From positions 48,536 through 112,535 of the forward strand of contig NW_014040345.1 in assembly GCF_001186125.1 (NCBI RefSeq): 64,000 bases of DNA, in the 5' to 3' direction. The stretch is from Sphaeroforma arctica JP610. Taxonomy: Eukaryota. Numbering within the stretch: the stretch's first letter is position 1; every line of letters begins with the position of its first letter. This document shows positions 1 through 32,983 of the stretch, one piece after another. The position numbers and the translations under genes were made by a program. The notes under the pieces are model-generated. The model saw only the letters and a program-made list of their open reading frames with translations, was not told the origin of the DNA and made no database searches.

Positions 1-2
1 TA

Positions 3-2374
3 ATTTCCATCGAAGTTTACACCGACGCGAGCAAGCCGTCCGACGCTGTGTTCCAGATCTCGGCGTATACAAGTGAGTCGGAGCAGGTGCTGTTTGCCCT
101 GGATGGCTGTGACGCCGACAGGCTGCCAGCCATTGAGCTGCGCTCGTTTGACACAGAACCCAAGCTCATTGCGGCCTTCCTGGCGTACATCCACGAAGCT
201 CGCATCAACGTCATTACCGGGTGCAACACGTTTGGCTTTGATTGGGAATATATACTCGGAAGGTGTGCCCAGTTTGGCGTGTCGACTATGGGGTCCTCGT
301 TAAATGGGGTCAGCCAGTCTTCGACGGCCAGTGTCCGGTGGTCATCGTCAGGCGCCGGTGTGGTGGACATCCAGTACCTCAAGATGCCGGGCATAATGTG
401 AACATTTTCAAGGACATGTTCAAGCGCTCGTCGTACAAGCTGGACAGCGTTGCGGCCGACTTTGTGGGTGACCACAAGGACCCCATCACCGTGTCGGACA
501 TCTTTGATGGCTACGAGACAAGCCTCGACACCAAGAGCACCCTGTACACGGATGTGGGACTGTACTGTGTGAAAGATTCGGCCCTTGTACATGTGCTGGC
601 CCACAAGGTCACAGCCCTCATCTACCTGGTGGAGCTGTCGCGCGAGTGCAGCGTGTCCATAGACACCATCCGCATTGCCGGGCAGCAGCATCGCGTGTTT
701 TCAAATATGTACCAGACATTTGCGCCCCGGGGAATTATCCTCAACTACCCTAAGGCCATGCATGTTTCGGGTCGGGACACGCTGGGTGAGTGCCAACGAT
801 CATAAGGAAAATGTGCTGGCCGAGAAAATCAAGATGGCCAAGCGCAAGATTGTCGACGATCGACGATCTGGACTTTGCGTACGAGCCTGAAGAGTTTGAC
901 GAGAACGAACTGGTGGCCGCCAAGTACGAGGGCGCCTGTGTGCTGGAGCCTGTGCCGGGCCTTTATTACAACGTGCTGCAGTACGACTTTGACTCGTTAT
1001 ACCCCAGTGTACTCATGGCCTACAACATCTGCTACAGCACGTACCTGAGCACCGAGCCGCCTCCAAACATGGTCCCGCAGATGTACCACACTGTCAAGTG
1101 GACGTCCAAGGGCGGCGATGAGAACATCCACCACTTCCTCAAGGAGCCGGAGGGCATTGTCCCCAAGCTGCTGCGCGACCTGCTGGGCGTTCGCAAAGCC
1201 GTGAAGAAGATCCTCAAGTCGACTGAGCTGTACACGGTGCAATACAACGTGCTCGACAAGCGGCAGCAGGCGCTCAAAGTGTGCGCCAACTCGATCTACG
1301 GGGTGCTTGGAGTCCAGAAGCACGGCATGCTGCCGCTCAACGAGGGGGCCAGCAGCTGCACGGCGCTTGGCCGAATGTCCCTGGGTATTGCCGTGGCCAA
1401 GTTTGAGGAGCTGGGGGCCACGGTCGTGTACGGTGACACGGACTCGTGCTATGTGACGTTCAACGGTATTGCGGCCGATAACTTTCCGGCGCTCTGGGCT
1501 CCCGCAACGGCCACTGAGAAGGCACTGGAGGCGTGCTTCCCATAAACCCTAAAAACGAGACCATTATATTTTCAAAACGAAGACCTACGTGGCCAACAAA
1601 GTGCTTGTTGAGAAGACGCCATCGGGGGTGACGGAGCTTGTTGCAGTCCCGCCGGAAAGAGATCTCATGGTCAAGGGGCTGACGAAGCGGACCACCGCGC
1701 TTGTGATGAGGGACATCTTTATGAATATGGTTATCAAAATATTCAAAAAGGTGCCCTACACAAGCCTGGTTGAGGACCTGGCGGGGCAGATCCGCCATAT
1801 CTCCCATAACACGATGCGCATCCCACCCCTGTCGTTCTGTAAGAGTGTCCAGGTCAAGGACGCCAAGCACTACAAGATCAGGCCACTCTCCGAGAACCCC
1901 GTGCTGCTGACCAAGCGGCTGCGTGATCTCGATCTACCCGAGTCGACTACGGAGGAGTGCGAGGCTTACAAGCGTACGTGCCTGCCGGGACACATCCTGG
2001 CGAGTGTCAAGATGATGGAGCGGGGGCAACAGATCAGAGCTGGTGACCGTATCGCAGTTCTTGTAGTCCGTGGGGCTCCCAAGCAGCGCCAGCAGGACCG
2101 GATTGTGGACCTTGACTATTTCCAGGAGTCCAGAAAAAATCCCGAGCTGCCACAGTTTTCAATTGACACGGACTACTACATCAATTCCATTGTCAACCCG
2201 CTGGCCGACATCTTTTCCACTGTGTACAAGGTGGACAAGGCCATGGTCAAGGAGGTGTCTATCAAGCGGGGCACATGTCCAACACTACACAAGACTCCGG
2301 AGGACAAGGCGAACGCCGTAGTGGGCAAGGACGGGCGGACCAGAGTGCTGACCCAGTCGACGCTCCAGTTTTAG
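3..2374 (+). pseudogene. polB: Family B DNA polymerase (viral PolB), frameshifted, 5' end outside window
   Basis: ExoII GCNTFGFDWEYI (48..401), SYKLDSVA and ExoIII YCVKDS (242..805). Motif A YDFDSLYPS, motif B KVCANSIYG, motif C YGDTDS (790..1545). C-terminal VKGL...DTDYYINSIVNPL (1589..2374). At least 4 frame breaks, no introns. Confidence 0.95.
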
Positions 2375-2439
2375 GATGTTGTATTTTTATTTTTACAATA
2401 AACATTTTTAATTCTATTTTCTTTTTTTATAGATATTTT

Positions 2440-3294
2440 CTAGAACTCCGTACCCACCAGCCCGTTCTTGGGCGTGTATGGTCGAAGCAGCGCAAATTGA
2501 AGTCGAAGCAGCGCAAATTGAAATTCGTCGGGTACGTTAGTAGCTGCAAAACGTGCCTCCTCAATGTGGCGGGCATCTACCGGCAAAACAAAGGACTCAT
2601 CCTCCATGTTGTGCAGCATGCACAGCTGCGACCTAGCTAGCACAATGCGCTGGATGTGTACACGACGCTTGAGACTAGTGCGGACGAAGAACTTTGAAAC
2701 GTTGTATTTTGTCGCTTTGCTCAGGCTACTTTCAGCAATTGCTGTTTCAATGAGACTGCAGCTGGCTAGGTAGAAGGACTGCAGAAACTCATCCATTTCC
2801 TTGACTATATAGAGTTGGTCGGCAAACAAATACACCACCGTGGCGACTCTGGAGGGCTCGATCGACGCAAGTTTGGCGATCTTTCGGATATAGCCATTTG
2901 CCACAGCTTGGCGACTACCCTTGATGTTCGCGGCGCGTTGCAACTCGCGCAGGGGCACGACCTCAGCATAGTTTGGTTGCAGGCTGACTAGTAGCATAGA
3001 CATGATATCTCGTTTGTGGGGCTGTGGTATTTCTAATCTCTGGTATAAAGTGTAGTCGAAGGCCGGGACAGGTGTGGCCTGGCGGACAATGAGCTCTCTC
3101 TGGCGACTCAAGGTTGACTCGTTGAACATGTCTATAAAGTGTCTGGAAAAGTAACTTGGCTCTAGTTTCGTCATCAGGTATTTATTGACAATGCGTGCAA
3201 CTAGTTCTCGTTCGCGGACACTACTGACCAGCGAGTAGCTGGTAATGTGGCTGAACTGCGCACGGAACGTATCGGGAAAGGGGAGTTGCGACAT
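2440..3294 (-). CDS. Hypothetical viral protein (284 aa), open frame with a 21-bp in-frame duplication at 2481-2522
   Basis: ATG preceded by A-rich TAAATAAATA like neighbouring viral genes; fills the space between AT-rich spacers; no recognised domain. Confidence 0.65.
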   Translation of the reverse strand: MSQLPFPDTFRAQFSHITSYSLVSSVRERELVARIVNKYLMTKLEPSYFSRHFIDMFNESTLSRQRELIVRQATPVPAFDYTLYQRLEIPQPHKRDIMSMLLVSLQPNYAEVVPLRELQRAANIKGSRQAVANGYIRKIAKLASIEPSRVATVVYLFADQLYIVKEMDEFLQSFYLASCSLIETAIAESSLSKATKYNVSKFFVRTSLKRRVHIQRIVLARSQLCMLHNMEDESFVLPVDARHIEEARFAATNVPDEFQFALLRLQFALLRPYTPKNGLVGTEF

Positions 3295-3349
3295 TATTTA
3301 TTTATTAAAATCATCGTATGCAAAGTCAAACACTAATGAAAAAGGAAAA

Positions 3350-5401
3350 TCAGTTTTTCGCGTCTACCGGCATATTGTCCGTCTTATCATCCAGTATCGC
3401 GTCGAGCGAGTTCTTCTGGGCCATGTGCTCAAAGAAGCCCGAGGCACACCCATCATGCACATAGTACTCCTGCGACTCAAGGCTTGCTGTGTACAGGCGG
3501 TACTTGACAAACTCGTTGCCGACCAGAATGTCATTCATGATGGTGGTCTCAATGATGCGCTCCTTCGTCACGTCGCCCCGGACGTACAGGTTCACCGCTA
3601 TGTGCTTGGCGTGGTCAATGACTGGGATCGCCATCTTAACCACGTAGCGCTCGTCCTCAAAGCGAAGCCGAAGTGGACTGGTCATGTTGAACGTCTCAAA
3701 GAAGGTGCGTATGCGTTTCCAGCTCACATGTGTCACAACCCGCTCCAAAATGGGTACCTGGTTGGCGTAGTGGATAAACTAGTGGGAGCTCAGGACCAGT
3801 GCGCACACAAAGGCCTTCTTGGACATGATCATGGTTAGCAGGGGGCCCGCCCGTGGACGGATTAGTTCCCAGGCCTCCAGCCACTTCTGGTTCATGGACG
3901 AGTTGGCGCTGCCATTTATGAGCACCGACATCACATTGCCCATCCCCATGCCGGACTTGTACGAGTGCGCGCGACTTGCATACGTGGCATCCAGCATCAG
4001 CATAATGGCCATATCCTTTAGGGTTTTACGTTGTTACCCGCCATAATGTCCTCGGCCCACATGTTGACCCTCTTGGACCTTGCTGTGACCACATCAGAGA
4101 GCTGGATGAACTTGAAGAGGCTGATGCAAAACTCAATGTCTTCCCCCAGCAGCTGTGCGGCCTGTGTGATGAGCTTGGGGCGCGGGGGCCCGTCCGTGTC
4201 TTTGCCACGGTTACACAGCTCCTCACTGGCCGGGCGGAGATCTAGTGTTGGAGGCCAGCATGTTGCACAGCATTGCATCGCGATTTAGGTACGGGATAAT
4301 GGCCTGCTTGGTGTTGTGTAGCATGATGATCCTGTTCTTGGTGCGCGTGAGCCCCACATGGTGGGTATTGGGCACCTTGAGCGGATCGGCGTCGCCTAAA
4401 CCCTAAAACCCCTAAAATCGGTCCTCGTCCTCGTCGTCCTCGTTGCGGACTGTCATGTCGTCGGACGGCACGTCAATGGGAAACTTAAAGTCTGGTGACC
4501 GCACCAGGTAGCTGATAAAGGTGGAGATGGGCGAGGGCCGGGGGCTGTTGTGCTTGAACGAATGGGCTGTGTGTCGGTCACTGCCGTTGTAGACGCAGCG
4601 CAGCTGCAATGGTTAGCTTGAGGTCCCTGTAGAGGTCCTGCTCGGGGTACGTGGCGTCGCCGTACACAACGTACTCGGGCAACTTGGTGTTGCCAGTCCC
4701 GGTTATAACGTTGGGGCTCTGGGTACTGGTGTTGATGAACTTGCACACGCCGTCTGGGACCCGAAATCTCGTTGAGAGCATGAGGTGGGTCCAGGGCTCG
4801 TTAAAGTACAGCTCGGGCTGGCAAAAGTACGTGTCTGAGGCCCCAGTTGATGGTCTGCAGCGAGTCGCCCACCAGAACCTTCTGGGTGTGCCCGGTCTGG
4901 CCACCGGCAACGGAGCGTAGGGCGTAAAAGTACAGGGGGGAGAGGTCCTGGGCCTCGTCAACAATGACCACGTCGTAGTGGATGTCGAGGGGGTCCTCAA
5001 TAGCCACCATGAGCTGGAGGTCAGTGACAACCGAATACAGCGAGTGGAAGATATGGACGTCCACCGCAAGCCGCCGCCGCCCTCTTGCGCGTGTCCGTTT
5101 TGAGCCACGATGAGTAGGCTAGAATGAGGATCCTTTTTCCTATGGCCTCGCGACTGAGGCGGTCAACGATGGCCAGCATGGTGAAGGTCTTGCCCGCACC
5201 GGCACAGGCCATGAGGGTGACTTTGTCGCCGCGGGCAACGGCATCTATGGCCATCTGCTGCTCGGCGGTCGGGGCTCGGAGGCCGTGTCCGTGGGGTGTG
5301 GGTTGGTGGGAGGGTGCGGGTGTGCGTGTGAGGTTGGGTCGGGGGGCAAGTGTGATGGGTGTGTTATCCACGGGCATGACTGGTTGAGTAGCAATCAACA
5401 T
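3350..5401 (-). pseudogene. SF1 (UvrD/REP-like) helicase, multiply frameshifted
   Basis: Walker A ACAGAGKT, ILAYS, FHS, Walker B IVDEAQD, motif III VGDSLQTI, LSTRFR. Motif VI-like HHVGLTRTKN read at ~4335-4375. Downstream fragments (4018..4278, 3779..4012, 3350..3748) are inferred to be its C-terminal extension. Confidence 0.85.
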
Positions 5402-5536
5402 GGTTGTGTGCTGTAGCTGTGTGTTGTTTGTAATGTAGATGTGCACATGTAAACTGAATTGTGGGCCTTGCAAACACGCATGTATATTGAAAATTCAATT
5501 ATTCATTTTATTTTTATATTTTTGAATGCTCATAGA

Positions 5537-6920
5537 CTAGGACTGGCTGATCGACCCTTGGACGATTTTTGGTTTGTTTTGGAGTTTCTCGTCCAGCAGC
5601 CCATGGTAGTATACCTCGTAGTTCCCGCGCTGCATATCCGCATACGTCACCTTGGCCACATACTCTGTGTTGGGCTTGGTCTTGTCTGGGCGCAGCTTGA
5701 CAAACTCAAACTGCCCAGCCTCGTACCTATACTCGGCAATGCAGTCCTTCGTAAACCGCGCGTGGAACGGCACCCGCTTGTCTTCAAATGGCACCAGGCC
5801 ATCGCGGGTCCCAACTATCAGCACAGAGTGCTTCTCCCTATCGGGCAGCGCCTCCACTGGCCTCACCCGAAAGTCTATAGACTGCAGCTTCTGTGGCTTG
5901 AACTTGATCACCCCGCCGGCGTACACGCTCGCCAGCTTGAAGCACACCCCGTCGTGCACTGCGAGGTCCAGCCCCCCAAACAGCTCCCTGTACATGCCCC
6001 CTGGGTATGTCTGGATGATCTGCAGCCTGTACTTGTCCACGGCCACGGTACCGTCGGGACCCAGCATCGTCTGCAGCATTGCGCGGCGGGCCGCAAAGGG
6101 CTTCTCAATCCACACCTCATTGTGCACCATCACCAGGTCCAGCACGTGCACAACGTCTCCACACACCTCGCAGTCCAGCACCGTGGCCCTGCTAGGCCTA
6201 CGAACCGCTGTGACGCCTCGCCAATGGGCACCACCTCGCCCGTGATGTACACCAAGTACGCGAGGTCACCACACCACCAGCAGGGCGCGCGACCCGTCGT
6301 ACTTGTACATGACCACTGAGTCGGGGGCAATGGGGGTTGTTGGCAACAGCGTGCCCGCCTGTGCGATGGGGAAAGTCAGCTTGCCCATGATGCGCATCGC
6401 CAACAGCTCACCGTAGATGGTCTGTGACCACACACGGTCCGGGATCAGCACCTCGCGTACAAACGTATTGACGCTGGGCACAAACTCGTCGTCCTGGAAC
6501 CCAAACTCGGACATTGCAACGCCGCCCTCGAGCTCAATCTCTATCATGTACATCTTGAACCCCGCCGTCATGGTATCCACAAACTCGACGGTGTACGTCG
6601 CCGGCCCCGCGGACAGCTTGACACCTGAAAAATTGGTGGTGGTCTTGATGCGACTCACACCGACAAGTTCATCCTCTCCAACTGATTCACTGGGGGTCTT
6701 TGATGAGACGTAGTACGCCCAGTGGGCAAACCTAAACAGCGCAAGTGTGCGCTTGCACTCCCAGACTGTGTTGTTGTCGTCAAACGACGTCACTGAGCGC
6801 AGCCCATCTTTAGAACCATTGTGCATCGTCTGCGTGAGCCGCTTCTCGTACACGGGTGGCCCATTGAGATGGCGCATGCGATACATGCACACGGGCCTCA
6901 ATCTCAATTTTCTCGGACAT
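5537..6920 (-). pseudogene. mRNA capping enzyme: TTM-type RNA triphosphatase + guanylyltransferase, frameshifted
   Basis: Start MSEKIEIEAR (6920; ExExR) and YMIEIELE (triphosphate-tunnel motifs). GTase motifs I KYDG, III LDCE, IIIa VLDL, IV HDGVCF, V KFKP..SIDF and VI RPDK..PN spread over three frames. Confidence 0.88.
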
Positions 6921-7009
6921 GGCGGTTGCGTTAATCTTTTTTTGTTGTTGCATTTGTATATACATATATACGTGTATACAAATGATAGCTTTTCGTTTTT
7001 TTTCTTCTT

Positions 7010-7710
7010 CTATACAAGCGTGGTCTCAAGGTTGTTGGTACTGTATCCACACTGCACGGTAAACGACAGGGGGTACGCGGTGTTGTACTCGGCCACCGTC
7101 ATGGGCTTGTGGGCTGCCTGTCCTGGCGTATGACCCCAGAAGAAAGGGAAGAATACATAGAACGGGAATATGGTAATGTGCGAAAATATGCTGTACAGTA
7201 CATGGTCAAACATTAGCGGCCCAGTCCTCTCAAATGGATGAGCCGTAGGGCACCCCCAGAAGAACATAGGTTGCAGCTTCAGCAGCGTGTAGGTGATCAG
7301 GTTGCCGCGCGAGCTCCCAATCACACTATTTGCGAGCCCCCGGGCATTCTCCTTCTCTTGTCCTACAAAAGGCCTGTGCGGTTGCACGCTGTAATGATGG
7401 ACCCAAAGTCCTTGCCCAGATCCACCATGTCGCTGTCAATGTAGATGCCGCCATACTTGTACAAGATCTCAAGCCGCGCAACGTCTGCCTTACCACAGTA
7501 CTGTGGTTCAGCGTCAAATACTGCACTGTTCTCCGTTAGCACACTGCGGATATTGTTGTTGTCCCAGAGCATGTACTCGAACCCGTTTGCCGCACACCAG
7601 GTCCTAAACGTCGCCATCCACCCAAGCACAGCTGCTGGTGCCTCTTTTCCATGTTGCACACGGGCATTTTGTGCCAGCCCGTTGATGCGGTCCACAAGGT
7701 CCGAATGCAT
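7010..7710 (-). pseudogene. GT32 / DXD-motif glycosyltransferase, one frameshift near 7370
   Basis: ADVARLEILYKYGGIYIDSD signature (7363..7710), continuing into LANSVIGS in 7010..7387. Confidence 0.85.
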
Positions 7711-7751
7711 TTTTTTTTTGTGATTTATTGAATGTTCTATTTTATTTTATT

Positions 7752-8481
7752 TTAAAATGAGTACCGTTTATTCTTCTTATTATCCATGACCATAAAGGCT
7801 ACTACACCCAATACGACCAACACAGCAACTCCAACACCCCCAATAAGAAGCCAGTTTGTCTCTGGCTCCTCTTCTTCCTCCACTGAGGCAACTGCAATTG
7901 CTTCCACCACTTCGCCACTGACACCCTCGTCGTCCTCCTCCTCCTCAACAACCTCTTCCTCTACTACCTCTTCTGTTGCAACCGTGTTGTTGGCGATAAA
8001 GGCGTTCAGACCACTTCCACTGGTCACAATCCTGAACCGGAATTTGTCCACAACGACACCACCCGTAATATCGTCTGGTACAAACGTCTGGTTAGAATCC
8101 TTGGTCGCAAATTTCACGCCGTCGTCCGTCTTTATTCGGACGACGGACTCATTTGTATCACTGGACACTGGGGTCACTGTGAAGACGGTTTTCGTTGAGC
8201 TATCCGATGACACAACCACAATCCCCTGCTGAAAGTATATATACCCACCGTTGATACTCATGGTGTACTTGTTGGGCTTGTCACTGACAGGGTCGAACCG
8301 TATGTCGACTCCATTGGTACCGTACCCCAGACGACCCCAGACGCTGGGGTGTTGCCGAGAGTGAACTGACGTTCATGGCACCCTTGTTCAGCTGTAGATC
8401 GATGCGGCCCACGGCTTTATCCAACACGCTGAGTTGCTTCTCAAGACCCGTGTTGAGTAGGGCATAGTCTATCGTGCTCAT
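7752..8481 (-). pseudogene. Membrane protein with acidic stalk and C-terminal TM helix; probably one gene split into 8281..8481 and 7752..8261
   Basis: E/V-rich acidic tract, hydrophobic WLLIGGVGVAVLVVLGVVAFMVM, basic tail. The fusion of the two ORFs is inferred. Confidence 0.55.
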
Positions 8482-8606
8482 GACGGTTTACACACAGATG
8501 GTTTATATAGACTTGGAAAAAATGGGTTTTTTATTAAATAGATTAAAAATTCGAACAGACCTTGCAAGTTTTTGTTTTTTTTCTTCAAGTTCTAAACGGC
8601 TAATGT

Positions 8607-8822
8607 ATGAATAAAATGAACAAAAAATCCGCAAAGCGTAGCACCAAGGTCATCCAAAGGGAGATTGATGACCGCGTAATCGAGATCCAGGCGCCAACGT
8701 CCTCCATCAACTGGTCACTCGTGTTTGCACTCGCTGTCCTGGGGCTCTCTTCGATCCTCGCCATGGTTGCGTATACCAGGCGAATCCCAAATATCAACAG
8801 TCAAAAATCACGCCCATCGTAA
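8607..8822 (+). CDS. Small single-TM hypothetical viral protein (71 aa)
   Basis: ATG after AT-rich spacer; one hydrophobic segment WSLVFALAVLGLSSILAMVAY. Confidence 0.45.
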   Translation: MNKMNKKSAKRSTKVIQREIDDRVIEIQAPTSSINWSLVFALAVLGLSSILAMVAYTRRIPNINSQKSRPS

Positions 8823-10247
8823 AAGCTCGACGTTATGTTTTGGATTATACCTCATGTAGTGAGATTCCCAGAAAGAGTGAGACCCAAGCTTAAAAGACGA
8901 CGGGTACGGCTTGGCCCTGTAGTAAAACAGCCGATTCCTCCAGTTGTTGCCGTAAACATTGCGATCTCCAACGAGGGCCATGAATGGAGTCGCAGTGACA
9001 ATATTGAAGATTTCGATGAACAGTTTTTTAGATGGCACAAAGCTAAAGAACTCATCGTAGAGTCGATCGCGTTCGGATACTGGGTCCGTACCCATCGTGA
9101 TGATGGCATTCATAGATTTGCGCACCTCTGGTGTCACATTCGTATACTGCTGCCCACACAGAAGTATAAAGATCGAGTAGTGGCGAGAGTTGTTGAATAC
9201 TGCCGATAGCTTGTTAAGCTGCGAGCGGTAGCCACTAATATCGTCCATTACCATGGCCATGTTGCTGCGGGTGTGTAACTCACCACCAATATGATTTTCC
9301 CGCTTAACAACATTATACTGCTTCTGGGTATTTGCGACGCTCTGGATGGTTTCGGCCGTCACCTCATCTGTCACATAGTGGAACGCTTCTGGGATGATGG
9401 GGGCCCAATCGTTAGATACAGCGGACTTATTCCCGGTAAACAGCACTGTAGAGTCAAACATGCCCCGCTTTTCATACAGCAGCGACTTTAAATTGTCGAG
9501 TTGTGGGTCACCGTGTCGTCGGCGAAGCAGTAAAGGCCGTCTATAGACACCTCCACCCCGACATACGGCTCCGCAGCAGAGATGTTCTTAGTCACACGAA
9601 CATATCCACCAATGCCACTGTCTGGTGCACGGGCATACTGAATAGTGCCGTCCGAACACGTTTTACAGGCATAGCCGTCGTGGTAGCTGAGAACGGTGGA
9701 TGTTGTGGACTCTCATGGTTGCGTGATTGATACGACAATGAATAAACGTTGTCGTCAGCACATCAAACGTTGAAGGATCAAGTCGGCTGTAGGCACGACA
9801 GTTGGATACCCTTCATACAACCCGTAGGTAGGTACATCGAGGTGTGAGAAGTACACTTTCCGCTGTGCACACGACAATCGACTCGGTTTTGACATTGTAG
9901 AGCACGAGCTTGTGGTCCCCCGTAACCACATATGGATCACTGTCAGCCTGGTGGATCGTGTACATCTGATCGATACCGCGGACCTTGTTGAGGACCCGGC
10001 GTGGGCGGATGTCAGGACACAGGAGCAGGTCCCCAACAACCACCTTGTCAATCCGTTGAAGAACCCCTGAGCACATCTTGACGAGAGTGTCGGGCGCCAT
10101 GCACTTACCAAGGCCACTGCGCCCACATACGAGGACCTTGGACCCGTCCATGGACTCTTCGTCACCCCGTTTCCAGGGACTAATACTGTCGGGATTCCAT
10201 TCTTTGAGATGAAGTTTGTCCAGTGTTGTATCGGTGGTTTTGGACAT
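8808..10247 (-). pseudogene. A32-like virion packaging ATPase interrupted by an intein
   Basis: N-extein KLHLKEWNPDSISP...VLVCGRSGLGK. C-extein S-T-I then (frameshift) KSLLYEKRGMFD. Walker B MVMDD, A32 motif NSRHYSIFILLCGQ, C-terminal LFYYRAK..FKLGSHSFW. Confidence 0.92.
9500..10103 (-). mobile_element. Mini-intein (Hint domain) in the Walker A of the A32 ATPase, internally degraded
   Basis: Block A CMAPDTLVKM begins right after GK (10103). Block B YVVTGDHKLVL. Blocks F/G YVGVEV..DGLYCFADDTVTHN end at 9500, followed by Ser+1. 604 nt, internal frameshift/stop, no LAGLIDADG seen. Confidence 0.92.
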
Positions 10248-10360
10248 CGTGTGTGTATGTGTGTCTTTTTGTTTCTGTTCCACCTCGACTATAACGTATG
10301 TTACACACCTAAACTTGGTTTTTTATATATTTTGCTTTTGAATATAATAAACTGTCAACT

Positions 10361-11041
10361 ATGGGGGGTAATATATCAAAGAGTTTTCGCGAGCAGACAA
10401 TGACCATGGTGAGCGATGTGTTTGTGTCCGCATCTACAGACATATCGAACCAGACAAGCAGCAACAACATCTCCCTGCAGACTATAATCTTTAATGGCAC
10501 GTATGGCGGCAACTTTACCTCGTCACAGACGTCAGACATTACCTCCAAGACGGTGCAGGTGGTTGTCAACAGCACGTCGAACGAGGTCACGAGCGCCATA
10601 GAGAACATGCTGATTGACTGGTTCGAGCAGAATCTGGATCAAACCCAGGATGGACTGACAACGTCCAAGAACAAGTCGGAAGTCGTGGACATTGTGAGGC
10701 AGTCCGTCCACTCCAACATTGACGCCGTCTTCAAGACCAGGGTCGACAACACACTAAAGTCTACCAACTCGTCCACACAGTCTTACAGTTTTGTGGGTAA
10801 GGTGGAGGGCGACTGCCAAATGGACCAGACGTCAATCATTGACTCCTTGTCTGAGCAGTTTGCCACGACACTTGTGCAGAATGTGCTGGACTTGCTGGGG
10901 GTCATCACAACCGACAAGGAGTCCACCCTGAACACGTCCCAGGAGAACACCGGCTCGTTTAGCACAACCATGCTTATCATGCTGGCCATTATTGCGGTTG
11001 CGATCCTGGCCATTGTCATTATATTTAAATTCAAGAAATAG
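10361..11041 (+). CDS. Myristoylated membrane protein (poxvirus L1R/F9L-like NCLDV family), intact 226 aa
   Basis: MGGNISKS N-myristoylation motif, S/T/N/Q-rich body, C-terminal TM (MLIMLAIIAVAILAIVIIF) plus KFKK; adjacent to A32. Confidence 0.75.
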   Translation: MGGNISKSFREQTMTMVSDVFVSASTDISNQTSSNNISLQTIIFNGTYGGNFTSSQTSDITSKTVQVVVNSTSNEVTSAIENMLIDWFEQNLDQTQDGLTTSKNKSEVVDIVRQSVHSNIDAVFKTRVDNTLKSTNSSTQSYSFVGKVEGDCQMDQTSIIDSLSEQFATTLVQNVLDLLGVITTDKESTLNTSQENTGSFSTTMLIMLAIIAVAILAIVIIFKFKK

Positions 11042-12648
11042 CTATTGTTTCATATAGATGTTGACGGTTTTCTGCACGTCTTGCATCATAGCCATAAGGC
11101 GTTTGTTCACATTATATATGTATCCAATCTGATCTGCGAGGTCAACATGAACGACCTGGAGGTCTGGGGTTGATTGCGATTTGGGTTGTGGGGTTGATTG
11201 CGATTTGGGTTGTGGGGTTGATTGCGATTTGGGTTGTGGGGTTGATTGCGATTTGGGTTGTGGGGTTGATTGCGATTTGGGTTGTGGGGTTGATTGCGAT
11301 TTGGGTTGTGGGGTTGGGGTGCTTTGTGATCCGACCTTGTCTGAACCTGATGTCTCACATTCATTACTCTTGCACCCCATGACGTTTGTCCCCCACATCC
11401 ATTCTGTCCATGTTTTTGGACGCTGCTCCCCAATAGTGACTGCGTGGAATAGTATGGTCTTGGTACGTAACGTAGTTAGAGGTATACTAGTGCTGGTGGT
11501 TTTGGCCTTCTTCGTCAGGGCGGAAATCTTTGCCCACAGCTCATGTAGACTCTCGTCGGCACGACTGGCTTTCAGGGCGTTCTTGATATCCCCCCTCTGC
11601 CCCATAATGAGTTCACACACATCCTTTGGAATCTCCTTGTGGTCCTTGAGATATGTCAACAGCTCATTTGCCTCATCGACCAACTCGCTACTCGTGGGTC
11701 TCTTGAGTGCCTTAATCACCTCTTGTGTACTTAATATAGAAGAAGGGAGAACTGAACTCTTCTTATCAGCCCTGTGCCGCTTTCTGTGCATTGTGACACT
11801 CTCAGCGCGGTCCCAGAGCTCAAGAGTTGTCCTGTCCATTTTCAGAATTTTTAGGTCGTTAATAATTTGGGCAATATCCTTCAGCGCCGTCTTCCTCTGG
11901 TTGTATGAACTGTCTGCATTTGTAATATCTCTAGCATCGTTGCGTAGCCTATTGTAGAACGCTTCAATCTGTGGATTCCCAACAGGCTCCGGGATATCCA
12001 TTTGTCCGTACGTCTTTAGATGGGCTTCCTCTGCTGTCGCACCACGCCATACCGGTTGAACCATGGTAATTTGTCCTTCTCAGCCTTCATCTTGGTAATC
12101 CACTATTCCAGAATACGCTGATCATTGTGAAATACCCGTTTAAAATAGCGGACTTCCGTTGTGTTCCCGCTAGGTTGTATGCGCTGGTTTGGTATATTAA
12201 CCAGGGACCATGCTTCGTGCAGGGTATCTGGAGCCTCATTGTCTCTCAACATCTTTAAGATGTGGGGCTTCTGGTTGTTCACATATGTTGCTATAGGTTA
12301 AGGTATCGACTCCATGCTGTCAAGGTACATTTTCAGCAGGCTGGCCCGATTAACAAGGTCCTGGAGAGAATACTCTAAATATTTTGCAATTGCCAGCGAC
12401 ATGTAAAATAATATCTTGTCTACAAGTTCGTTGTACGTCGCAGAGGTCTTCGCCCCATCGGAATCGTTCAGCTTTGCAAACAGCGATTCCCAATTCTTGA
12501 TCACCCGGGGGTCGTATTTGATCTTTTTGAGATCCGCGATAATGTCCTCCACCTTGGTGACCACCTCTTGTATTTGGTCAACTGGCAAAGACGCAACATA
12601 TGTGCTAATATCACGTGGTGCGTCTGACAAAATGATTTTTTTACTCAT
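11042..12648 (-). pseudogene. Orphan viral gene, tandem paralog A (disrupted)
   Basis: 12298..12648 + 11042..12064 align by eye to paralog B (MSKKIILSDAP/MSKNISLSDAP; PEPVGNPQIEAFYNR; DKKSSVLP). In-frame TAA after ESIP. Confidence 0.7.
11167..11310. repeat. 24-bp coding tandem repeat x6 (PQPKSQST on - strand)
   Basis: GGGTTGATTGCGATTTGGGTTGTG repeated six times. Confidence 0.95.
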
Positions 12649-12662
12649 TTTTTATTTATAGA

Positions 12663-14126
12663 TTAAAAAAAACTATGAATCTCTATGATCATGTCGTGTG
12701 CGTTGTTAATCCGAGCTGTGAGGTCGGAGAGGTCAGAAAGGTCGGCATGAATGGCCTGGAGGTCGTTATGGATGCCCTGGGTGTCTACTTGCGCGTTCTG
12801 TTCGGAGACCATGTTGCTGTCTGATGTGAATTCGTCTGGGCTTGATACCTCATACTCATCACTATTGTACACTGGGGGATTTGCATCCCATATCTTTTCT
12901 TTCCATGTTTGTGGCCGCTGCTCTTGAAAATTGACTGCGTGGTACAGTATGGTCTTGGCACGTAACAGTTTTTTTGGCCTACTAGTGCTGGTGGTGTTGG
13001 CTCTCTTCGTCATTGCGGTAATCTTTGCCCACAGCTCCTGCAGACTCGGGTCGGCTCGACTGGCATACAGGACGTCCTTGATATCCTCCCTCTGCACCAG
13101 AATGAGTTCATACACATCCTTTGGAATCTCGTAGTGTCCCTTGAGATATTTAAATAGCTCGCTTGCCTCTTCGAGCAACTCACTACTCGTGGGCCTCTCG
13201 AGAGCCTTAATCGCCTGTTGTGTACTGTATATCGCAAAGGGGAGCACTGAACTCTTCTTATCAACAGTGCACCGCTTTGTTGCCTTCGTTATACTCGCAG
13301 CGCGTTTCCACAGCTCAATAGTTATTGAGTCCAATTGCAGAGTCCTTAGGTCTTGGATAATTTTTGCAATATCCTTTATTGCCGACTTCCTCTGGTTGTA
13401 TGAATTGTCTGCATTGTAATATCTCTGGTGTCGTTGCGTACCCTATTGTAGAACGCTTCAATCTGTGGATTCCCAACAGGCTCCGGGTTGTTCAGTGTCT
13501 CGTACGTTTTCCTGTAGACGTTCTCCACCTTCGCCCCACTCCGAAATATATATCTGTTTATCCATGTCTCATTGTCCTTCTCGGCCTTCATCTTGGCAAT
13601 CCACTGTTCTAGGATCTGCTGATCATTTTCAAATACCCGTTTAAAATGGCGGGTTTCAGTCGTGTCCACACCAGGTTGTACGAGGTATCTAGGAATATCA
13701 ATCCGCGACCAGACGTCGCGCAAAACTGGTGGAACCGATGCGGGGCATGTTGTGATTCACATATATTGCTATAGGTTCAGGTATCGACTCCAGCGTGTCA
13801 AAGTACCTTTTCAGCAGGCTGGCCTGATTGACAAGGTCCTGAAGGGAATAATTTACCTGTTTCGCAATTTCTAGCGATGTGTAAAATAGTATCCTGTCTA
13901 CTTGTTTGTTGTATGCTGTGGAGGTATTAGTTCCATTGGAATCGTTCAGCTTCGCAAGCAGCGATTTCCAGTTCGTGATCACCCCGGAGCTGTATTTGAT
14001 CCTTTTGAGATCCGCGATAATGTCCTCCACCTTGGCGACCACCTCTCGCGATTGGTCGACTGGCAAAGACGCAACAGATGTACCAATAACACCTGGTGCA
14101 TCTGACAAACTGATATTTTTACTCAT
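12663..14126 (-). pseudogene. Orphan viral gene, tandem paralog B (disrupted)
   Basis: Fragments 13698..14126, 13376..13723 and 12663..13334 are collinear with paralog A. Confidence 0.7.
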
Positions 14127-14172
14127 TATTTTTAATTTTATTTTTATTCAGTCGTAAAAAATATATAAATCG

Positions 14173-15080
14173 CTATTTTAGTTTCTGCAGCAGCCGGAGA
14201 CTCATCAGCCGAAACCTTCGCGGGTACACCCGGTGCGTCATGGTGTTGCATCTATACAAGACGGCCTGCCCCTCGGCCGTCCCACCTACCACCAACCACC
14301 GCATCCCCGCTGGGATCTTGCTCGTACCTTCCAGTAGACTATCCCATCGCGCCAACTCAGCACAACGGGGCAGGAACTGGCCATAGAGGGGCACGAGGGT
14401 ACTGTCTGCCGCGCTAGGAGCCGCCGGGCCCATCATGACCAGGGCCTTCGCGAGATAGTCCTCGGGATCTACGGGCGTAAGGACCGTGGCCGAGCTCAGG
14501 ACCACAACCGGGGCACAGCCAAACATGTCTTTCGTGTAGTGGTCCATGCCCCTGGGTAGCTGGGTCTCGTCTGTGTACATCTGCTGCAGGAACTTGTTGT
14601 AGCGGCACACGACAAAGCGACAACCACCGGCCTTTACCGTCCCCCCGGTGACAACGTAGCACATGTTGGCCCACTGGTCCTTTGCAATCCCGTACGTGAG
14701 ATGCAACGCAGATGGTCTCAGGGGCGCGTCAATCTCGTTTGACAGCGCATAGTATAAGAAGGGGACAGTGTTCGGAGCCATGCGCAACCACGACACGGTC
14801 CCGGCAGTGGGGGGGGGGGGGGGGTGGTGGCGGCAGAGTCTCGTGTGCACAGTAACCGTGGTCGCTCGGTGCGCCCAGTGGGGGCAGGGTACTGGAGCCG
14901 CCCCCGTGTGGCTCGGGGGTTTTTAAAAGAAGCTCAGTGCCAGAGTCGTTGTCCCACTCCATGACCTCCGTGGCATGCTCTAGGGGTGGCATGGGGTTCA
15001 GCAGTGGCAGGGGTTTTAGGGTTTAGGTCATGGAGCTCGAGTTCTACGTCGAGGTTAAGATCAGTATTCAAGTCAAACAT
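14173..15080 (-). pseudogene. Hypothetical viral gene, frameshifted
   Basis: ATG at 15080 (MFDLNTDL) continuing through 14729..14992 and 14173..14850; breaks include a poly-G run near 14810; no domain recognised. Confidence 0.5.
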
Positions 15081-15124
15081 TGTAAAAATGATTTGTAGTC
15101 TCACGCGCAATGACCATATATATC

Positions 15125-15506: not shown

Positions 15507-16062
15507 TGTTGCGCTCGTACTCTAAAGCAGTACGTATACTAAAAACGTACTCTTAATAGTACAAGGAACTTAAGTTTCCCAAATGGTTTTAAATGGTTTT
15601 ATTAATTAATACCTTTTCCATTTTACATATCAGATATTTGGACAAAGCCATTACAAGGCCCCAGTAAAATACCAAACATAAGGGTTGGTCTAGTTCTAAT
15701 AATAGAACTATGTTTACTTTCCAACTTTATTTATATCTGAATACTTCGGTAGCGAGATGGCTCAACCGAATATAGGTTTCTAGGGACTATTAGCGTAACC
15801 TAGTTGATTCTCCGATCAGCCAACCAGATGTGCCAGTCTGATGAAGGCTAAGTCGGTAATTCTTGATAAGTGGCAAGTTATTGGTTAAGACAATAACTAA
15901 GGACATCAAGAGTAAAAATAATTTCTAATAGAGCGACAACGAAACACTAAATAAAATTCCTTCGGTACTGAGAAGATTATATATAGGCAATGTCTCAGCC
16001 TCACAATCCGTTTATTTACTTTTATATTTTCACGATACTTAGAATTTACCTAAGGTATTAAT
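15507..16062 (+). repeat. 5' LTR (truncated, with internal deletions)
   Basis: Matches ~22703-23413 (e.g. GGAACTTAAGTTTCC, CCGATCAGCCAACCAGATGTGCCAGTCTGATGAAGGCTAAG, CACGATACTTAGAATTTACCTA) with substitutions and several indels. Confidence 0.88.
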
Positions 16063-16162
16063 TACTTAAACTACTTAAGCGTAAAGGTAGATTAACTACC
16101 ACAAAAATTTTCTTGTCCAAGCTAGTCCTTAAGAGACAAGCTAGTAGTCATAAATTAAGATT

Positions 16163-18367
16163 ATGACCAAGAAAGACAATAATCCTTCTAAGGAGCATAA
16201 AGCTGAAAAGAAGAAGATGGAGAGAGAAGCCGCCAACGCTACCGCAGCTACTGCTGCCGCAGAGGCAACCGCTGCCGAATCTGACAATAATAGTCAAAAG
16301 GACAATGCTTCAGATAAGGATGTAGCCACTCCGATTAAGGAGACTACTCCCACTGACAGAGCCCGAGGGCCAACTATTGTCTCAACTTCAAAGCTTGCAT
16401 TTACGAAGCCAAGAAGTCAGACAAGGGACACGTCACAAGACGCCCCAACCTATTCTTCTGACGAAACTCAGAATGGAAAGTCCCCAATTATAGGGGACAA
16501 GGACAAATCTCAGAAGGAACCTATTATGGAACCAGAAGAGGAGGCAAGCTCAAGTGGCAAACCCGAATTCACGTCCGAGACTACTAAGCCAATGCACATA
16601 AGTAAGTTAATTACTGAAAACGCTGATCTTAAGAATCAGTTAGCTACCATTATGAAAGACTTGACTGTCGAACATGTAAATCAATTATATAGATCAGGAA
16701 AACATGCACAGCACTTACGCGAGCATGTTTCCCCGGGCATTACTGAAGCCCTACAGAAGTGGACAGAACGTCGACAGGCAATTACGCCCGAAGAACGTAA
16801 AGACTCGAGCGCTACACCTGTGGCATATGAGCCAGATGTGCTCATCGTATCTATACCTTACGAGGTATTACCACCAGAAATTCAGGCTAATTACTCACCT
16901 GTTCTGACACCCGGCTGTGAGTCACCCGTCCTTGAGGGTATTATAGACCCAGAGGCAGGTAGAAATACTCCGCCACTTTTACCCAATTGGGATGACAATC
17001 GTCGGAAACTAGTTAAGACTGTGTATGTTATCCAGACGCATGAATCACCTAATATTATAATATCAACCACTATCCGAGGAACAGAACACCAAAAGGCCTC
17101 GACCATGGACTTTACAAGGGGTAATAAACACCCCCGTAAACGTGTTAACGAAATCGAATTTAATCGCTTCGATCGCACAGCACTACATCAACCCGCAGAG
17201 GATTTTCACTCTGACGAGGTGACCGAACTTAACAAATCGGTCGACGATTATACCATTAAAATGGAAATCGCCCACGATGCGCATCATGCTGATGATGTAG
17301 CATACTTTGCGAATATGACTGCGATTAAGCAAAAGCGCATTGATCAGTTACTTCAGGCCCAACGTGGACAAGACCACAGAGACAACCAGAAGTACAAGGG
17401 ACAGATCAGTCGACTTAAGTCGAATTGGGATGCCAACAGTAAGCAGGTCAAGTTTATAAAAAACCATGACCTCGACACGCTAACCCGTACGCTTAATGCG
17501 TTTACGGTCATGCTAGAGACGAATGATATCGCTCCCCAGCAATGGATCTCTACTTTAATGCAGACGTTTGACCCTACAGGTACAAGTTATTCGATCATAC
17601 AGCGACAACAACATGAGCTAGACACTTGTCGTGACTGGCCAGCTGTGTGTTGGTTGGTTACATCCTTGTTAAGTAAGGACATGCGTAGCCCAGGACTGAG
17701 TTCAATTTTAACTGAACCAGTTGAGAACACGCCCATTCAAAGTTATATTCTGAAGCTAGATGCTGACCTGAAACATTCAGATATAGCGAAGGACAAGGCA
17801 CAGCGATGGTACGAGTTCCTGGCTATGCCCGTGTTCTGTAAGAACATAGGGAATAACAACCGTGAGAGCCTGTACACCGAGTTGCGACGTAAACACGCGA
17901 CTGAGGCTCGAGACAGGGGACATGGAACAAAGTTTCATCTATCCCGACTTACGTGGGAACAGTTTTATGACACTGTATCCACCCTTTTCCCTGCACACCG
18001 AGTAACATCGAAGGGAAAAGTGGCTGTTAAGAAGCCGCGGGAGTACACCGATCAAGGATACGTATCCAGGCAGACCTCAAACGAGAAACACCAACATACA
18101 CGTGCTCGCGACCCCACTCTATCCACGGGACCCAATAAACGGGCACGCGCGGAGGCAAAGGACAAGGAACCTCCATTTAAAGAGATTAAGAAATGTTCCG
18201 ACGCACAGCGTGGGTATGACAGGTACCAATTGACCCATAACAGTTATTGGAATGGCAGGCATGCATCCGCCTGTACACACTTTCCTATTAAGTGCGACAA
18301 GTGTGAGAAGACCAATGGCTATCACACTAAGTCTTGTGACAAAAAGCCCAACATTAAGTTGGAGTGA
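16163..18367 (+). CDS. gag: Gag-like protein (734 aa)
   Basis: Long ORF after the 5' LTR; C-terminal Zn-knuckle-like CDKCEKTNGYHTKSC; directly upstream of the protease. Confidence 0.8.
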   Translation: MTKKDNNPSKEHKAEKKKMEREAANATAATAAAEATAAESDNNSQKDNASDKDVATPIKETTPTDRARGPTIVSTSKLAFTKPRSQTRDTSQDAPTYSSDETQNGKSPIIGDKDKSQKEPIMEPEEEASSSGKPEFTSETTKPMHISKLITENADLKNQLATIMKDLTVEHVNQLYRSGKHAQHLREHVSPGITEALQKWTERRQAITPEERKDSSATPVAYEPDVLIVSIPYEVLPPEIQANYSPVLTPGCESPVLEGIIDPEAGRNTPPLLPNWDDNRRKLVKTVYVIQTHESPNIIISTTIRGTEHQKASTMDFTRGNKHPRKRVNEIEFNRFDRTALHQPAEDFHSDEVTELNKSVDDYTIKMEIAHDAHHADDVAYFANMTAIKQKRIDQLLQAQRGQDHRDNQKYKGQISRLKSNWDANSKQVKFIKNHDLDTLTRTLNAFTVMLETNDIAPQQWISTLMQTFDPTGTSYSIIQRQQHELDTCRDWPAVCWLVTSLLSKDMRSPGLSSILTEPVENTPIQSYILKLDADLKHSDIAKDKAQRWYEFLAMPVFCKNIGNNNRESLYTELRRKHATEARDRGHGTKFHLSRLTWEQFYDTVSTLFPAHRVTSKGKVAVKKPREYTDQGYVSRQTSNEKHQHTRARDPTLSTGPNKRARAEAKDKEPPFKEIKKCSDAQRGYDRYQLTHNSYWNGRHASACTHFPIKCDKCEKTNGYHTKSCDKKPNIKLE

Positions 18368-21300: not shown

Positions 21301-22532
21301 ATGTTCCATGGCGCAGGGTCACCATTGATCTGGCTGACCTGCCCACGTCCGAGCACACAGGCGACCGTTACGTATGCCACTTTTTTGATGTGGCGTCACG
21401 GTTTAACTTGCTCTATCCATTAAAGGATAAGAATACGCAGACCGTGGCCGAATTATGTTGCCAAGTCTTTGCTGACCACGGGTGGCCAGGTATTATGTGC
21501 ACTGATAACGGTAGTGAGTTCTGCGATGACGTAATGGAATTGCTAGTACTCGTACCAGGCATATGCCATAAGAGAGGTGTGCCATATAAGCCGCAAACGC
21601 AAGGCGCGAATGAAACGCGCCATAGAAGACTTAAGTTCTTCTTGCGTACTACATTAACGGATGATGCAGATGATTAGTCATATCACCTTAACTGTATACA
21701 AACACAGATGAACGAGTGTGCTGATCCGGTTACAGGAACTACACCCGCTCACTATTTTCGTGGCAGATATAGTGAGTTACAAATCCCTTTTAACAAGGAC
21801 GAACATGATCACCATGAGTTACCATGGTTAGAGAAGGTACAACGTATTTATAACGTTGTATATCCTTGCTTGCGAGAATTACGCAATATAGCCCTATTAA
21901 AAAGGCAAAAGCGTTGGAACACTACCAAGAAGATACCAGAGTATCAGGTTGGTGACAGAGTTAAAATCCGTCAACGCAATTCCGATGCTACTGTATTAAC
22001 ATCTAAATGGATAGGTCCATATATAATCTCGGTAGCAGACACTAAAAGTGAAACGTACGAGGTAAATAACCCCGATGGTTCTAGTGCGCTTAATATGGGC
22101 ACAAGTCGTATCCCGACTACAGAGATTATACTCGCAAGAAGACATGACTCTAATGCCCCTCTTGATCGTTCTGAATTTAAAGACATTATATGGAGAACGG
22201 ATAAGGGAGGCTATACATACTATCGTAAATGCTTTATAGACGGTACAATAGCTGAGTTGACTTCAGATGCTTTCGATAATCAAGAGTATTTAAAAGCCTT
22301 TAATCGAAAATGGCGTAAATGCCTGCATAAGTCACAAGCTGAAAAAGATAGCATGTTTCCATCGTCTGAAGGCACAGAAGTTAAAACTTATCCGCCTACA
22401 TCATTTATCCCGAGCTTTCATGCTCATCCTTCATATGTGCTTAAGACATTGAAGCGTAAGAAACATCTAGTCGACCACCACGGACCTACCGGACCTAAGC
22501 CCAAAACTCACAGGGTAACCGAGAACGCTTAA
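18368..22532 (+). pseudogene. pol: Pol: protease, RT, RNase H, N6-adenine MTase, integrase
   Basis: PR ALIDPGSEISCI; RT FTTIDL and YIDD (19424-19435); RH IATDASD...DMLSR. INT HRLKH...CTDC, VTIDL, TDNGSEF, PQTQGANE, KWIGPY. Frameshifts near 19840 and 20400, in-frame TAG at 21675. Confidence 0.93.
20257..20660 (+). other. Dam-like (DIRS-type) DNA N6-adenine methyltransferase domain within pol
   Basis: DWKCNPRWF...FGPHTIDMFA (SAM-binding motif, 20320-20334)...DAFK, then after a 1-nt frameshift IDLSEHNAWANPPWQLI (catalytic NPPW 20430-20441)...ITLCSP....PWLNKL. Confidence 0.85.
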
Positions 22533-22668
22533 CTTCTCCGCTTGAGAAACATTAACTATATGTTAAGCTACTTAATGTTTCGACCCGTTTTTCCTTTCTC
22601 GCTTTTTGACCCATAATCAGCTTGAGTGAGCAACTTGCTTCTCATGGGTCTTAAAGCTGGGTGGGAGC

Positions 22669-23439
22669 TGTGTATTAAGCCGGGCTTCCACATTAGACTC
22701 TATGTTATAAACGTACTCTTAAGCAGTCCGTAAATTATAAACGTACTATTAATAGTACGAGGAACTTAAGTTTCCTAATATGGTTTTTAATGGTTTTATT
22801 AATTAATACCTTTTCCATTTTACATATCAGATATTTTAACGAGGCCATTAAAAGGCATCAGTAAAATACCAAACATAAAGAGTTGGTTTAGTTCTATTAA
22901 TAGAACTTTATTTACTTTCCAACTTTATTTATATCTGAATACTTCGTTAGCGAGATGGCTCAACCGAATATAGGTTTCTAGGGACTAATAACGTTACCTA
23001 GTTGATCCTCCGATCAGCCAACCAGATGTGCCAGTCTGATGAAGGCTAAGTCGGTAATTCTTCATAAGTGGCATGTTATTGGTTAAGGCAATAACTAAGG
23101 ACATCAAGAGTATTTTTATTTTTTTATTTATTTTTCTAAAGATAGGATTTTATGAGTTTCTCGGATTCGCCCCAATGAAAAATACCATGGTTTCTAATAG
23201 AGCGACAACGAAACACTAAATAAAATCCTTTCGGCGGAAACAGTACTGAGAGGATTATATATAGGCAATGTCTCAGCTTCACAATCCCTCAGAGTATTGC
23301 TGTTTTCACGAGGCATACCTAACTTTACTAAAAGTCTCATTTCGTTTATTTACTTTGATATTTTCACGATACTTAGAATTTACCTACGCGTTTATTTATT
23401 CTAAGGCGTTAATATCGCCTTGAGAAACCGAATCTTACA
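22669..23439 (+). repeat. 3' LTR
   Basis: Starts TG(TG)TA right after the PPT-like tract and ends ...TTACA; homologous to the 5' LTR. Exact ends inferred. Confidence 0.85.

Positions 23440-32943: not shown

Positions 32944-32983
<40 letters not shown>

What the first reader, a model, noticed from the sequence alone, without database searches (positions are those of the whole stretch)
1543..4417. Telomere-like patches sit exactly on the lesions that break viral genes
Seen: TAAACCCTAAAAAC (1543-1556) supplies the stop that truncates PolB after motif C. TTTAGGGTTTT (4017-4027) and CCTAAACCCTAAAACCCCTAAAA (4395-4417) both terminate helicase frames. GGGGTTTTAGGGTTTAGG (15010-15027) lies inside another viral gene. 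These AT-rich motifs are out of character in the GC-rich viral coding DNA, occur in both orientations, and recur in host introns and intergenic DNA (~34084, 35497, 44161, 53158-53228, 55050). Inference: double-strand breaks are patched with a few imprecise telomerase-added repeats before rejoining. This would be a genome-wide mutational process that helps inactivate the endogenous virus and shows it resided in the host nucleus.
Basis: partly seen in the sequence, partly recalled or inferred. Interest (0 to 1): 0.75.

Follow-up and report, generated by a model that had tools for sequence, protein, structure and literature searches.

The report
Telomere-repeat scars riddling a fossil virus
In a single-celled relative of animals, short telomere-like DNA patches occur about every 4,000 bases, break up genes of a decayed giant virus lodged in the genome and replace lost DNA in host repeats, and are likely scars left when telomerase wrote a few repeats onto broken DNA ends before they were rejoined.

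Summary
The patches are real, at the stated coordinates, and far above chance. There are 4 of at least 12 nt in 15 kb of viral DNA (0.02-0.23 expected) and 11 in 41 kb of host DNA (about 0.2 expected); contigs from two sequencing runs reproduce those checked. All 4 viral patches coincide with a frameshift or stop, but only 4 of 26 candidate lesions carry one, and PolB and the helicase have other breaks upstream. Density is similar in viral and host DNA, so this is host-wide decay, not antiviral targeting. Two sites show replacement directly: at 35499-35507 a 9-nt patch replaces a 23-nt piece kept by a tandem sister copy, and the PolB site has lost about 20 nt net against homologues. Two loci are G-strand-then-C-strand pairs, as expected if both broken ends were extended and then joined. 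Best reading: short interstitial telomeric insertions made during break repair, a process known in mammals, here unusually short, irregular (T3-5AG3-4) and dense, in an ichthyosporean. The weak link is that the host's true telomere repeat and telomerase template could not be checked.

The parts
1..15085 (.). Decayed endogenous NCLDV-like segment: PolB, UvrD-like helicase, glycosyltransferase, A32 packaging ATPase with a Hint/intein piece, tandem duplicated gene
   Evidence: Pfam hits; 26 candidate lesions; runs off the left end of the window
1..2374 (+). Broken viral family-B DNA polymerase; candidate lesions near 393, 761, 858 (no patch) and 1545 (patch)
   Evidence: PF03104 and PF00136
1543..1556 (-). 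Patch 1 (G-strand on minus); supplies the TAA and sits on a net loss of about 20 nt with frameshift
3350..5330 (-). Broken viral UvrD/AAA_19-like helicase; candidate lesions near 5071, 4845, 4607, 4243, 3781 (no patch) and 4410, 4020 (patch)
   Evidence: AAA_19 and UvrD hits below Pfam cut-off, ResIII above it
4017..4028 (+). Patch 2 (G-strand on plus) at a frameshift with TAA in the helicase
4395..4418 (-). Patch 3, about three irregular units giving two in-frame TAG stops; frame kept on both sides
15009..15027 (+). Patch 4, at a predicted frameshift near the 5' end of an unidentified viral-like gene (14176-15085, minus)
   Evidence: gene has no family hit
15516..23380 (+). Ty3/gypsy-type LTR retrotransposon (RT, RNase H, integrase; LTRs 92% alike); carries no patch
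25841..25860 (+). Degenerate patch in about 14 extra nt relative to a sister duplicate at about 26116 (weaker control, copies 72% alike)
27901..27924 (-). Host patch with variant units
31039..31050 (-). Host patch
34084..34096 (-). Host patch
35499..35507 (-). Host patch of 9 nt replacing the 23-nt linker of a 52-nt tandem unit; best direct evidence for deletion plus patch
42464..42496 (.). Inverted pair, G-strand then C-strand, 14-nt perfect arms and 5-nt spacer
44161..44177 (-). Host patch, two units
53160..53228 (-). Two host patches 51 nt apart (possibly one duplicated), just upstream of an inferred splice acceptor
55050..55080 (-). Degenerate, doubtful patch
   Evidence: not scored
63683..63780 (.). 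Longest site: 36-nt G-strand array, short spacer, about 56-nt C-strand array; unit order not mirrored

Best explanation
The patches are secondary insertions that replace short lost stretches of viral and host DNA, likely written by the host's telomerase onto broken chromosome ends that were then rejoined. Steps: (1) a double-strand break forms and a few to tens of bases are lost (loss shown at 35499 and at the PolB site; the break itself is inferred); (2) telomerase adds one to three imprecise T3-5AG3-4 units to one 3' end, or to both (inferred); (3) end joining seals the gap, giving a one-sided patch in either orientation or a G-strand-then-C-strand pair when both ends were extended (orientation shown, cause inferred); (4) scars persist where DNA is dispensable: introns, intergenic DNA and the dead provirus (shown for this window only). 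The process is not aimed at the virus.
For: Enrichment over Markov and letter-permuted controls and over 872 kb of viral contigs. 4 of 4 viral patches lie on a lesion; chance about 7e-5 at 15-nt tolerance and 5e-4 at 30 nt, or about 6e-4 (15 nt) for the three true frameshifts alone, from the per-patch values. Sister copy at 35.4 kb: 23 nt replaced by 9 nt, with both flanks confirmed in 2 of 3 units. PolB: a profile from 93 homologues ends at column 40 before the patch and resumes at 56 after it, so 45 nt are expected where 25 nt lie; the Phe-to-Tyr span is 52 nt vs 24 residues in 38 of 49 homologues that have the motif. 2 of 2 inverted pairs run G then C. Units vary in T-run (TTTTAGGG 9, TTTAGGG 4, TTTTTAGGG 2, G4 variants 2 of 17 complete units), as stuttering telomerases give (PMC7857110, passages). 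Run contigs match the patch sites they cover. Precedent: ITS insertion with short deletions and head-to-head stretches in horse (PMC7215372, sections 9 and 12).
Against: The host's terminal repeat, TERT and telomerase RNA were not seen, and no paper found states them. The ancestral opisthokont repeat is TTAGGG (PMC3622300, passage), and TTAGGGTTAGGG occurs 0 times here, so the model needs a derived telomere. No empty allele was found, and no close intact virus, so the two helicase sites and site 15010 have no measured indel. The PolB patch can also be read in a third frame that partly resembles the conserved motif at that place. The lesion finder penalises stops, so site 4395 is a lesion by construction. 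2 of 2 for orientation has a 1 in 4 chance. The runs are contigs, not raw reads, and both informative runs are flagged as possible sources.
Confidence: 0.58

Rival explanations
1. Same break-repair scars, but the repeats were copied or captured from telomeric DNA or telomeric RNA by a repair polymerase or a retroelement reverse transcriptase, not added by telomerase at the break.
For: Fits all counts and the deletion-plus-patch anatomy. Proposed as an alternative for mammalian ITS (PMC7215372, section 12). The perfect 14-nt arms at 42464-42496 look like fold-back copying. An RT-bearing LTR element is present in the window.
Against: Templated insertions usually copy nearby or random DNA (recalled); a strong bias for one motif in 1-3 units suits a dedicated template better. 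The two arms at 63683-63780 are not mirror copies.
Confidence: 0.2
2. The motif is not this host's telomere repeat: it is filler written by another template-carrying enzyme, or the footprint of a mobile element with telomere-like ends.
For: Host telomere unknown; the canonical holozoan TTAGGG tandem is absent. Direct repeats flank the 63683 array.
Against: Strand asymmetry and unit are those of known telomeres (TTTAGGG in Chlorella, TTTTAGGG in Chlamydomonas; PMC7857110, passage). An element capped like a chromosome would collapse to C-then-G, the opposite of both pairs (inference). No fixed length or target duplication is evident among the sites.
Confidence: 0.13
3. Functional cis-element (telo-box-like) or splicing signal kept by selection.
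For: The core equals the plant telo-box (PMC3022908, passages); two sites lie just upstream of inferred splice acceptors.
Against: Four copies disrupt viral coding frames; both strands are used relative to transcription; one copy replaces part of a tandem unit.
Confidence: 0.04
4. Native viral sequence or chance. At the PolB site in particular, the patch could be a relic of the gene's own codons left between two small deletions.
For: A third frame across 1539-1565 has Pro, Ile and Glu at the spacing of the conserved motif, and the codon model routes through that frame at 2 of 3 penalties. A 10-nt partial match at 6728 lies in an intact viral frame.
Against: That frame has Pro where 46 of 49 homologues have Leu and Asn where 49 of 49 are hydrophobic; it gets no profile hit; three of its codons are rare in this virus (0.06-0.16 of synonymous use). 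It cannot explain the other sites or the enrichment. I put this at about 0.2 for the PolB site alone.
Confidence: 0.04
5. Assembly or sequencing artefact.
For: The assembly has small errors elsewhere (28840, 14808).
Against: X11 record 1 matches 1-11194 with 0 differences and X12 records match 922-5030 with 0 differences; X11 and X12 records cover five host patch sites without differences at them. The same runs expose those other errors.
Confidence: 0.01

Closest known systems
Short interstitial telomeric sequences inserted at double-strand breaks in mammals (PMC7215372, abstract and sections 5, 9, 12 read; PMC2246262 and PMC8537989, search listing only)
   Same: One-step insertion of telomere-type repeats, often with a short deletion (30% of horse loci); some head-to-head stretches; telomerase inferred.
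   Different: Those lists require at least 4 TTAGGG units (229 human, 142 horse loci). Here most patches are 1-3 irregular units at about one per 4 kb, and only one locus (63683) would pass that filter, so densities are not directly comparable. No orthologous empty sites or telomerase-RNA fragments were shown here.
Plant telo boxes (PMC3022908, passages)
   Same: Single telomere units dispersed in the genome; non-processive telomerase proposed as their origin.
   Different: Telo boxes cluster in 5' gene regions and act in expression; these patches interrupt coding frames and come with deletions.
Eimeria dispersed AAACCCT heptamer repeats (PMC7564333, one passage)
   Same: Telomere-like heptamers common outside coding sequence in a protist genome.
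   Different: Described as a repeat class, not as break scars; unit regular; here the unit is irregular and tied to lesions.
Endogenous giant viruses of ichthyosporeans (PMC5294986 and PMC11244446, passages)
   Same: NCLDV core genes in Sphaeroforma and Amoebidium genomes are on record.
   Different: Neither main text contains the word stem 'telomer'; their supplements were not examined.

Membership tests
Short ITS inserted at DNA breaks | Repeat equals the host's terminal telomere repeat | not testable with these tools
   No genome held; no record found
Short ITS inserted at DNA breaks | An empty ancestral site shows one-step insertion, often with deletion | tested here: met
   Met at 35499 by a tandem sister unit, weakly at 25841, and at protein level for PolB; not testable for the other sites
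Short ITS inserted at DNA breaks | Flanked by unique sequence, at internal chromosome positions | tested here: met
   Patches lie inside genes, introns and intergenic DNA, bridged by long run contigs where laid
Short ITS inserted at DNA breaks | Nucleotides in register with the repeat at the break | tested here: inconclusive
   Only one site has a DNA-level empty state; there 2 nt (TA) of the left flank continue the repeat
Short ITS inserted at DNA breaks | At least four repeat units (operational filter of PMC7215372) | tested here: not met
   Met only by 63683-63780; the four viral patches have 1-3 units, so they are filed as a shorter variant, not as ordinary members
TERC-ITS | Fragment of telomerase RNA beside the repeats | not testable with these tools
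   Host telomerase RNA unknown
Telomere-telomere fusion relic | Head-to-head array flanked on both sides by subtelomeric repeats | tested here: inconclusive
   63683 is head-to-head, but its flanks share only short direct repeats and no long inverted homology; the window ends 220 nt later
Telo-box cis-element | Enrichment in 5' regions of genes | tested here: not met
   By my reading of the gene layout, only 63683 lies upstream of a gene (about 750 nt from the sugar-transporter start); the rest are in coding frames, introns or decayed DNA
Endogenous Nucleocytoviricota element | NCLDV hallmark genes within a host scaffold | tested here: met
   PolB and Pox_A32 above Pfam cut-off, contiguous with host DNA; capsid gene not seen in the window; virus family not determined

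The most novel reading that the evidence does not exclude
In this ichthyosporean, telomerase is a routine part of double-strand-break repair and a major mutagen: it leaves a 1-3-unit scar every few kb (tens of thousands per genome if the window is typical), accounts for about one in six frame-breaking lesions of neutral DNA, and the scars reveal a derived, irregular T3-5AG3-4 telomere not yet reported for unicellular holozoans. Decayed viral genes would serve as a dated record of the process.
Probability: 0.3. Interest if true: 0.72.

Novelty: new variant of a known kind. Interest (0 to 1): 0.48.

Why it matters
Textbook telomere biology holds that telomerase is kept away from internal breaks, and insertion of telomeric repeats at breaks is documented mainly as a rare event in mammals (no such insertion in about 350,000 induced junctions, PMC7215372 section 12). 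If this window is typical, a culturable animal relative does it often enough to measure, which makes the disputed role of telomerase in break repair directly testable. It would also predict a new telomere motif in Holozoa and add one route by which endogenous giant viruses decay, though not a targeted one.

Tried and rejected
No whole genome is held, so no chromosome ends, TERT or genome-wide counts. Searches for a close intact virus failed: best PolB relatives 46% identical and at most 40% in 80 viral loci; PolB C-terminal part only itself or nothing; helicase C-terminal part only the window's own gene model among 1.84 billion representatives; nothing. Pfam found no family across the 4395 patch, so its indel size is unknown; the gene at 14176-15085 has no family or Atlas hit. 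Laying runs: pieces of a second related viral copy appeared (X11 record 2 and PolB pieces) but none shown spans a patch (143 pieces not displayed). On 25000-36000 no sister copy spans a patch and no empty allele appeared (79 pieces not displayed). No RNA holder was listed. The viral tandem duplicate (11320-12653 vs 12815-14131) and the two LTRs differ by several indels, none with a patch. The LTR element's 0 patches in 8.3 kb is not significant (P about 0.14). One search failed on BLAST settings and was rerun. Sites 42464, 44161, 53160, 55050 and 63683 were not checked against runs. Rejected: antiviral targeting (equal densities); splice branch-point role (both strands used); assembly artefact.
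Full report
Setting. The window is eukaryotic; no whole genome is held. Bases 1-15085 are a GC3-rich, decayed NCLDV-like segment with PolB, a UvrD-like helicase, a glycosyltransferase and an A32 ATPase. A Ty3/gypsy-type LTR element follows (15516-23380), then repeat-rich host DNA with intron-rich genes and a sugar transporter. The transporter's best named relative is CFRG6395T1 at 68% identity, far above animal hits at 32-38%. That CFRG denotes Creolimax fragrantissima is recalled, not from a call. The host is therefore most likely an ichthyosporean; Sphaeroforma genomes are on record as holding NCLDV core genes (PMC5294986, passages). The exact species was not established.

Observation. The four viral strings are exact. 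With a pattern of T2-5AG3-4 units, the viral part has 4 patches of at least 12 nt against simulated means of 0.23 and 0.02, and the host part has 11 against 0.23 and 0.22; 0 of 60 simulations reached either count. The pattern was chosen after seeing the data, so I added two controls. TTTAGGGTTT occurs 17 times, while 23 letter-permuted 10-mers occur at most 4 times, that one being the same repeat in another phase. In 80 unrelated viral loci (871,719 bases) the rate is 0.12 per 15 kb. Site 55050 is only degenerate.

Not an artefact. One contig of run X11 matches 1-11194 with no difference, X12 contigs match 922-5030 with none, and an X11 contig covers 14796-15154 without gaps; the only differences listed there are at 14807-14808. 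The host patches at 25841, 27901, 31039, 34084 and 35497 lie in contigs with no differences at those sites. These are assembled contigs and both runs are flagged as possible sources, but they do expose other assembly errors (28840, 14808). X16 and X17 showed no piece over a patch among the rows displayed.

Patches and lesions. A codon-usage model that uses no homologues placed frame breaks across 13,885 coding bases, merged into 26 candidate lesions, some probably false. All 4 patches fall on one; the chance is about 7e-5 at 15-nt tolerance and 5e-4 at 30 nt. Site 4395 counts as a lesion only through its own two stops; the three true frameshifts alone give about 6e-4. Conversely, 22 of 26 lesions have no patch (best loose match at most 10 nt among the 25 positions printed), and PolB and the helicase each have patch-free breaks upstream of the patches. 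Patch density is 0.27 per kb in the virus and 0.22 per kb in the host. The patches are thus one class of neutral decay, not shown to be the inactivating hits and not aimed at the virus.

Insertion plus deletion. At 35.4 kb a 52-nt tandem unit has three copies; between copies 2 and 3 a 23-nt linker is replaced by a 9-nt patch, and each flank of the linker survives in 2 of 3 copies. A weaker case at 25841 has about 14 extra nt against a 72% identical sister. At PolB, a profile of 93 of 120 homologues stops at column 40 before the patch and resumes at 56, so 45 nt are expected where 25 nt lie. The Phe-to-Tyr span is 52 nt against 24 residues in 38 of the 49 homologues that carry the motif. Against this, a third frame over the patch has Pro, Ile and Glu in the spacing of the conserved motif, and the codon model uses that frame at 2 of 3 penalties. 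It fails at two conserved positions, gets no profile hit and uses rare codons, so I give it about 0.2 for that site. The helicase sites and site 15010 have no usable homologue. Indels between the viral tandem duplicates and between the LTRs carry no patch.

Anatomy. Of 17 complete units, 9 are TTTTAGGG, 4 TTTAGGG, 2 TTTTTAGGG and 2 have four Gs; TTAGGGTTAGGG never occurs. Heterogeneous units are a known product of telomerase stuttering (PMC7857110, passages). Both inverted loci run G-strand then C-strand, the order expected when both broken 3' ends are extended and then ligated; with n = 2 this is weak. The arms at 63683 are not mirror copies; those at 42464 are perfect, which fold-back copying could also give.

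Mechanism. Most likely (0.58) a break loses a few bases, telomerase adds 1-3 imprecise units, and end joining closes the gap. Replacement of lost DNA by a patch is shown at one site in DNA and one in protein terms; the break, the enzyme and the identity of the repeat with the host telomere are inferred. Capture or templated copying of telomeric DNA or RNA (0.2) and a non-telomeric filler or element footprint (0.13) remain open. A cis-element role, chance and artefact are unlikely.

Relation to known systems. This works like the short interstitial telomeric insertions of mammals, where deletions at the site are the commonest change (30%), in-register priming was seen at 31 of 40 loci and head-to-head stretches occur (PMC7215372, sections 9 and 12). 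It differs in unit, in length (below their four-repeat filter, section 5) and apparently in density. Plant telo boxes (PMC3022908, passages) and Eimeria heptamers (PMC7564333, one passage) are looser parallels. I found no statement of an ichthyosporean telomere repeat or of such scars in this group in searches, in passages of PMC3622300, PMC12221973, PMC11936186, PMC11286789, PMC11244446 and PMC5294986, or in the one TeloBase supplement held. Figure 1 of PMC7857110, the TeloBase database itself and other supplements could not be seen and may bear on this. Earlier notes of this scan report similar scars in other genomes; they are unchecked and lower the novelty without adding evidence.

Verdict. 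Observation confirmed; interpretation partly supported. New variant of a known kind, interest 0.48; 0.72 if the density proves genome-wide and the telomere matches.

Noticed in passing
window 63683-63780: 98-nt head-to-head irregular telomere-like array. Its left flank (63645-63680) recurs as short direct repeats at 63888 and 63949, suggesting a complex rearrangement or a repeated element around it.
   Followed up: partly
run contigs laid on window 541-860, 3531-3832, 4846-5027: A second, diverged copy of the same viral PolB and helicase genes exists elsewhere in the genome (X11 record 2, 5,296 nt); it would be the best empty-site control but could not be fetched.
   Followed up: partly
window 8811-10250 (minus): The viral A32 ATPase region carries a Hint (intein-like) domain, Pfam Hom_end_hint above cut-off, with several frame breaks.
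   Followed up: no
window 11045-14131 (minus): Tandem duplicate of an unknown viral gene, 78% alike; one copy has a 24-nt in-frame tandem repeat (11165-11316).
   Followed up: partly
window 10364-11041 (plus): Intact ORF starting MGG with a C-terminal hydrophobic stretch, resembling myristoylated membrane proteins of irido/marseille-like viruses (recalled; no Pfam hit).
   Followed up: no
window 15516-23380: LTR retrotransposon whose 3' LTR has three extra segments (about 69, 9 and 56 nt) relative to the 5' LTR, none telomere-like.
   Followed up: partly
window 28840 and 14808: Probable assembly errors: both runs add an A at 28840 and read G at 14808 beside a G16 run, which may explain the frameshift called near 14851.
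   Followed up: partly
window 3350-4290 (minus): The public gene model P0123 skips the 4017 patch and the stop at 3781, apparently as predicted introns, so annotation hides these lesions.
   Followed up: no
window 30900-32420: Decayed coding DNA that looks like a PIF1/Helitron-type element (by eye, untested), with diverged copies elsewhere in the genome.
   Followed up: no
window 34300-45100 (minus) and 48400-57330 (plus): Two intron-rich host genes that look like BRE1 and eIF4G2/DAP5 (by eye, untested); their introns hold most host patches and many tandem repeats.
   Followed up: no
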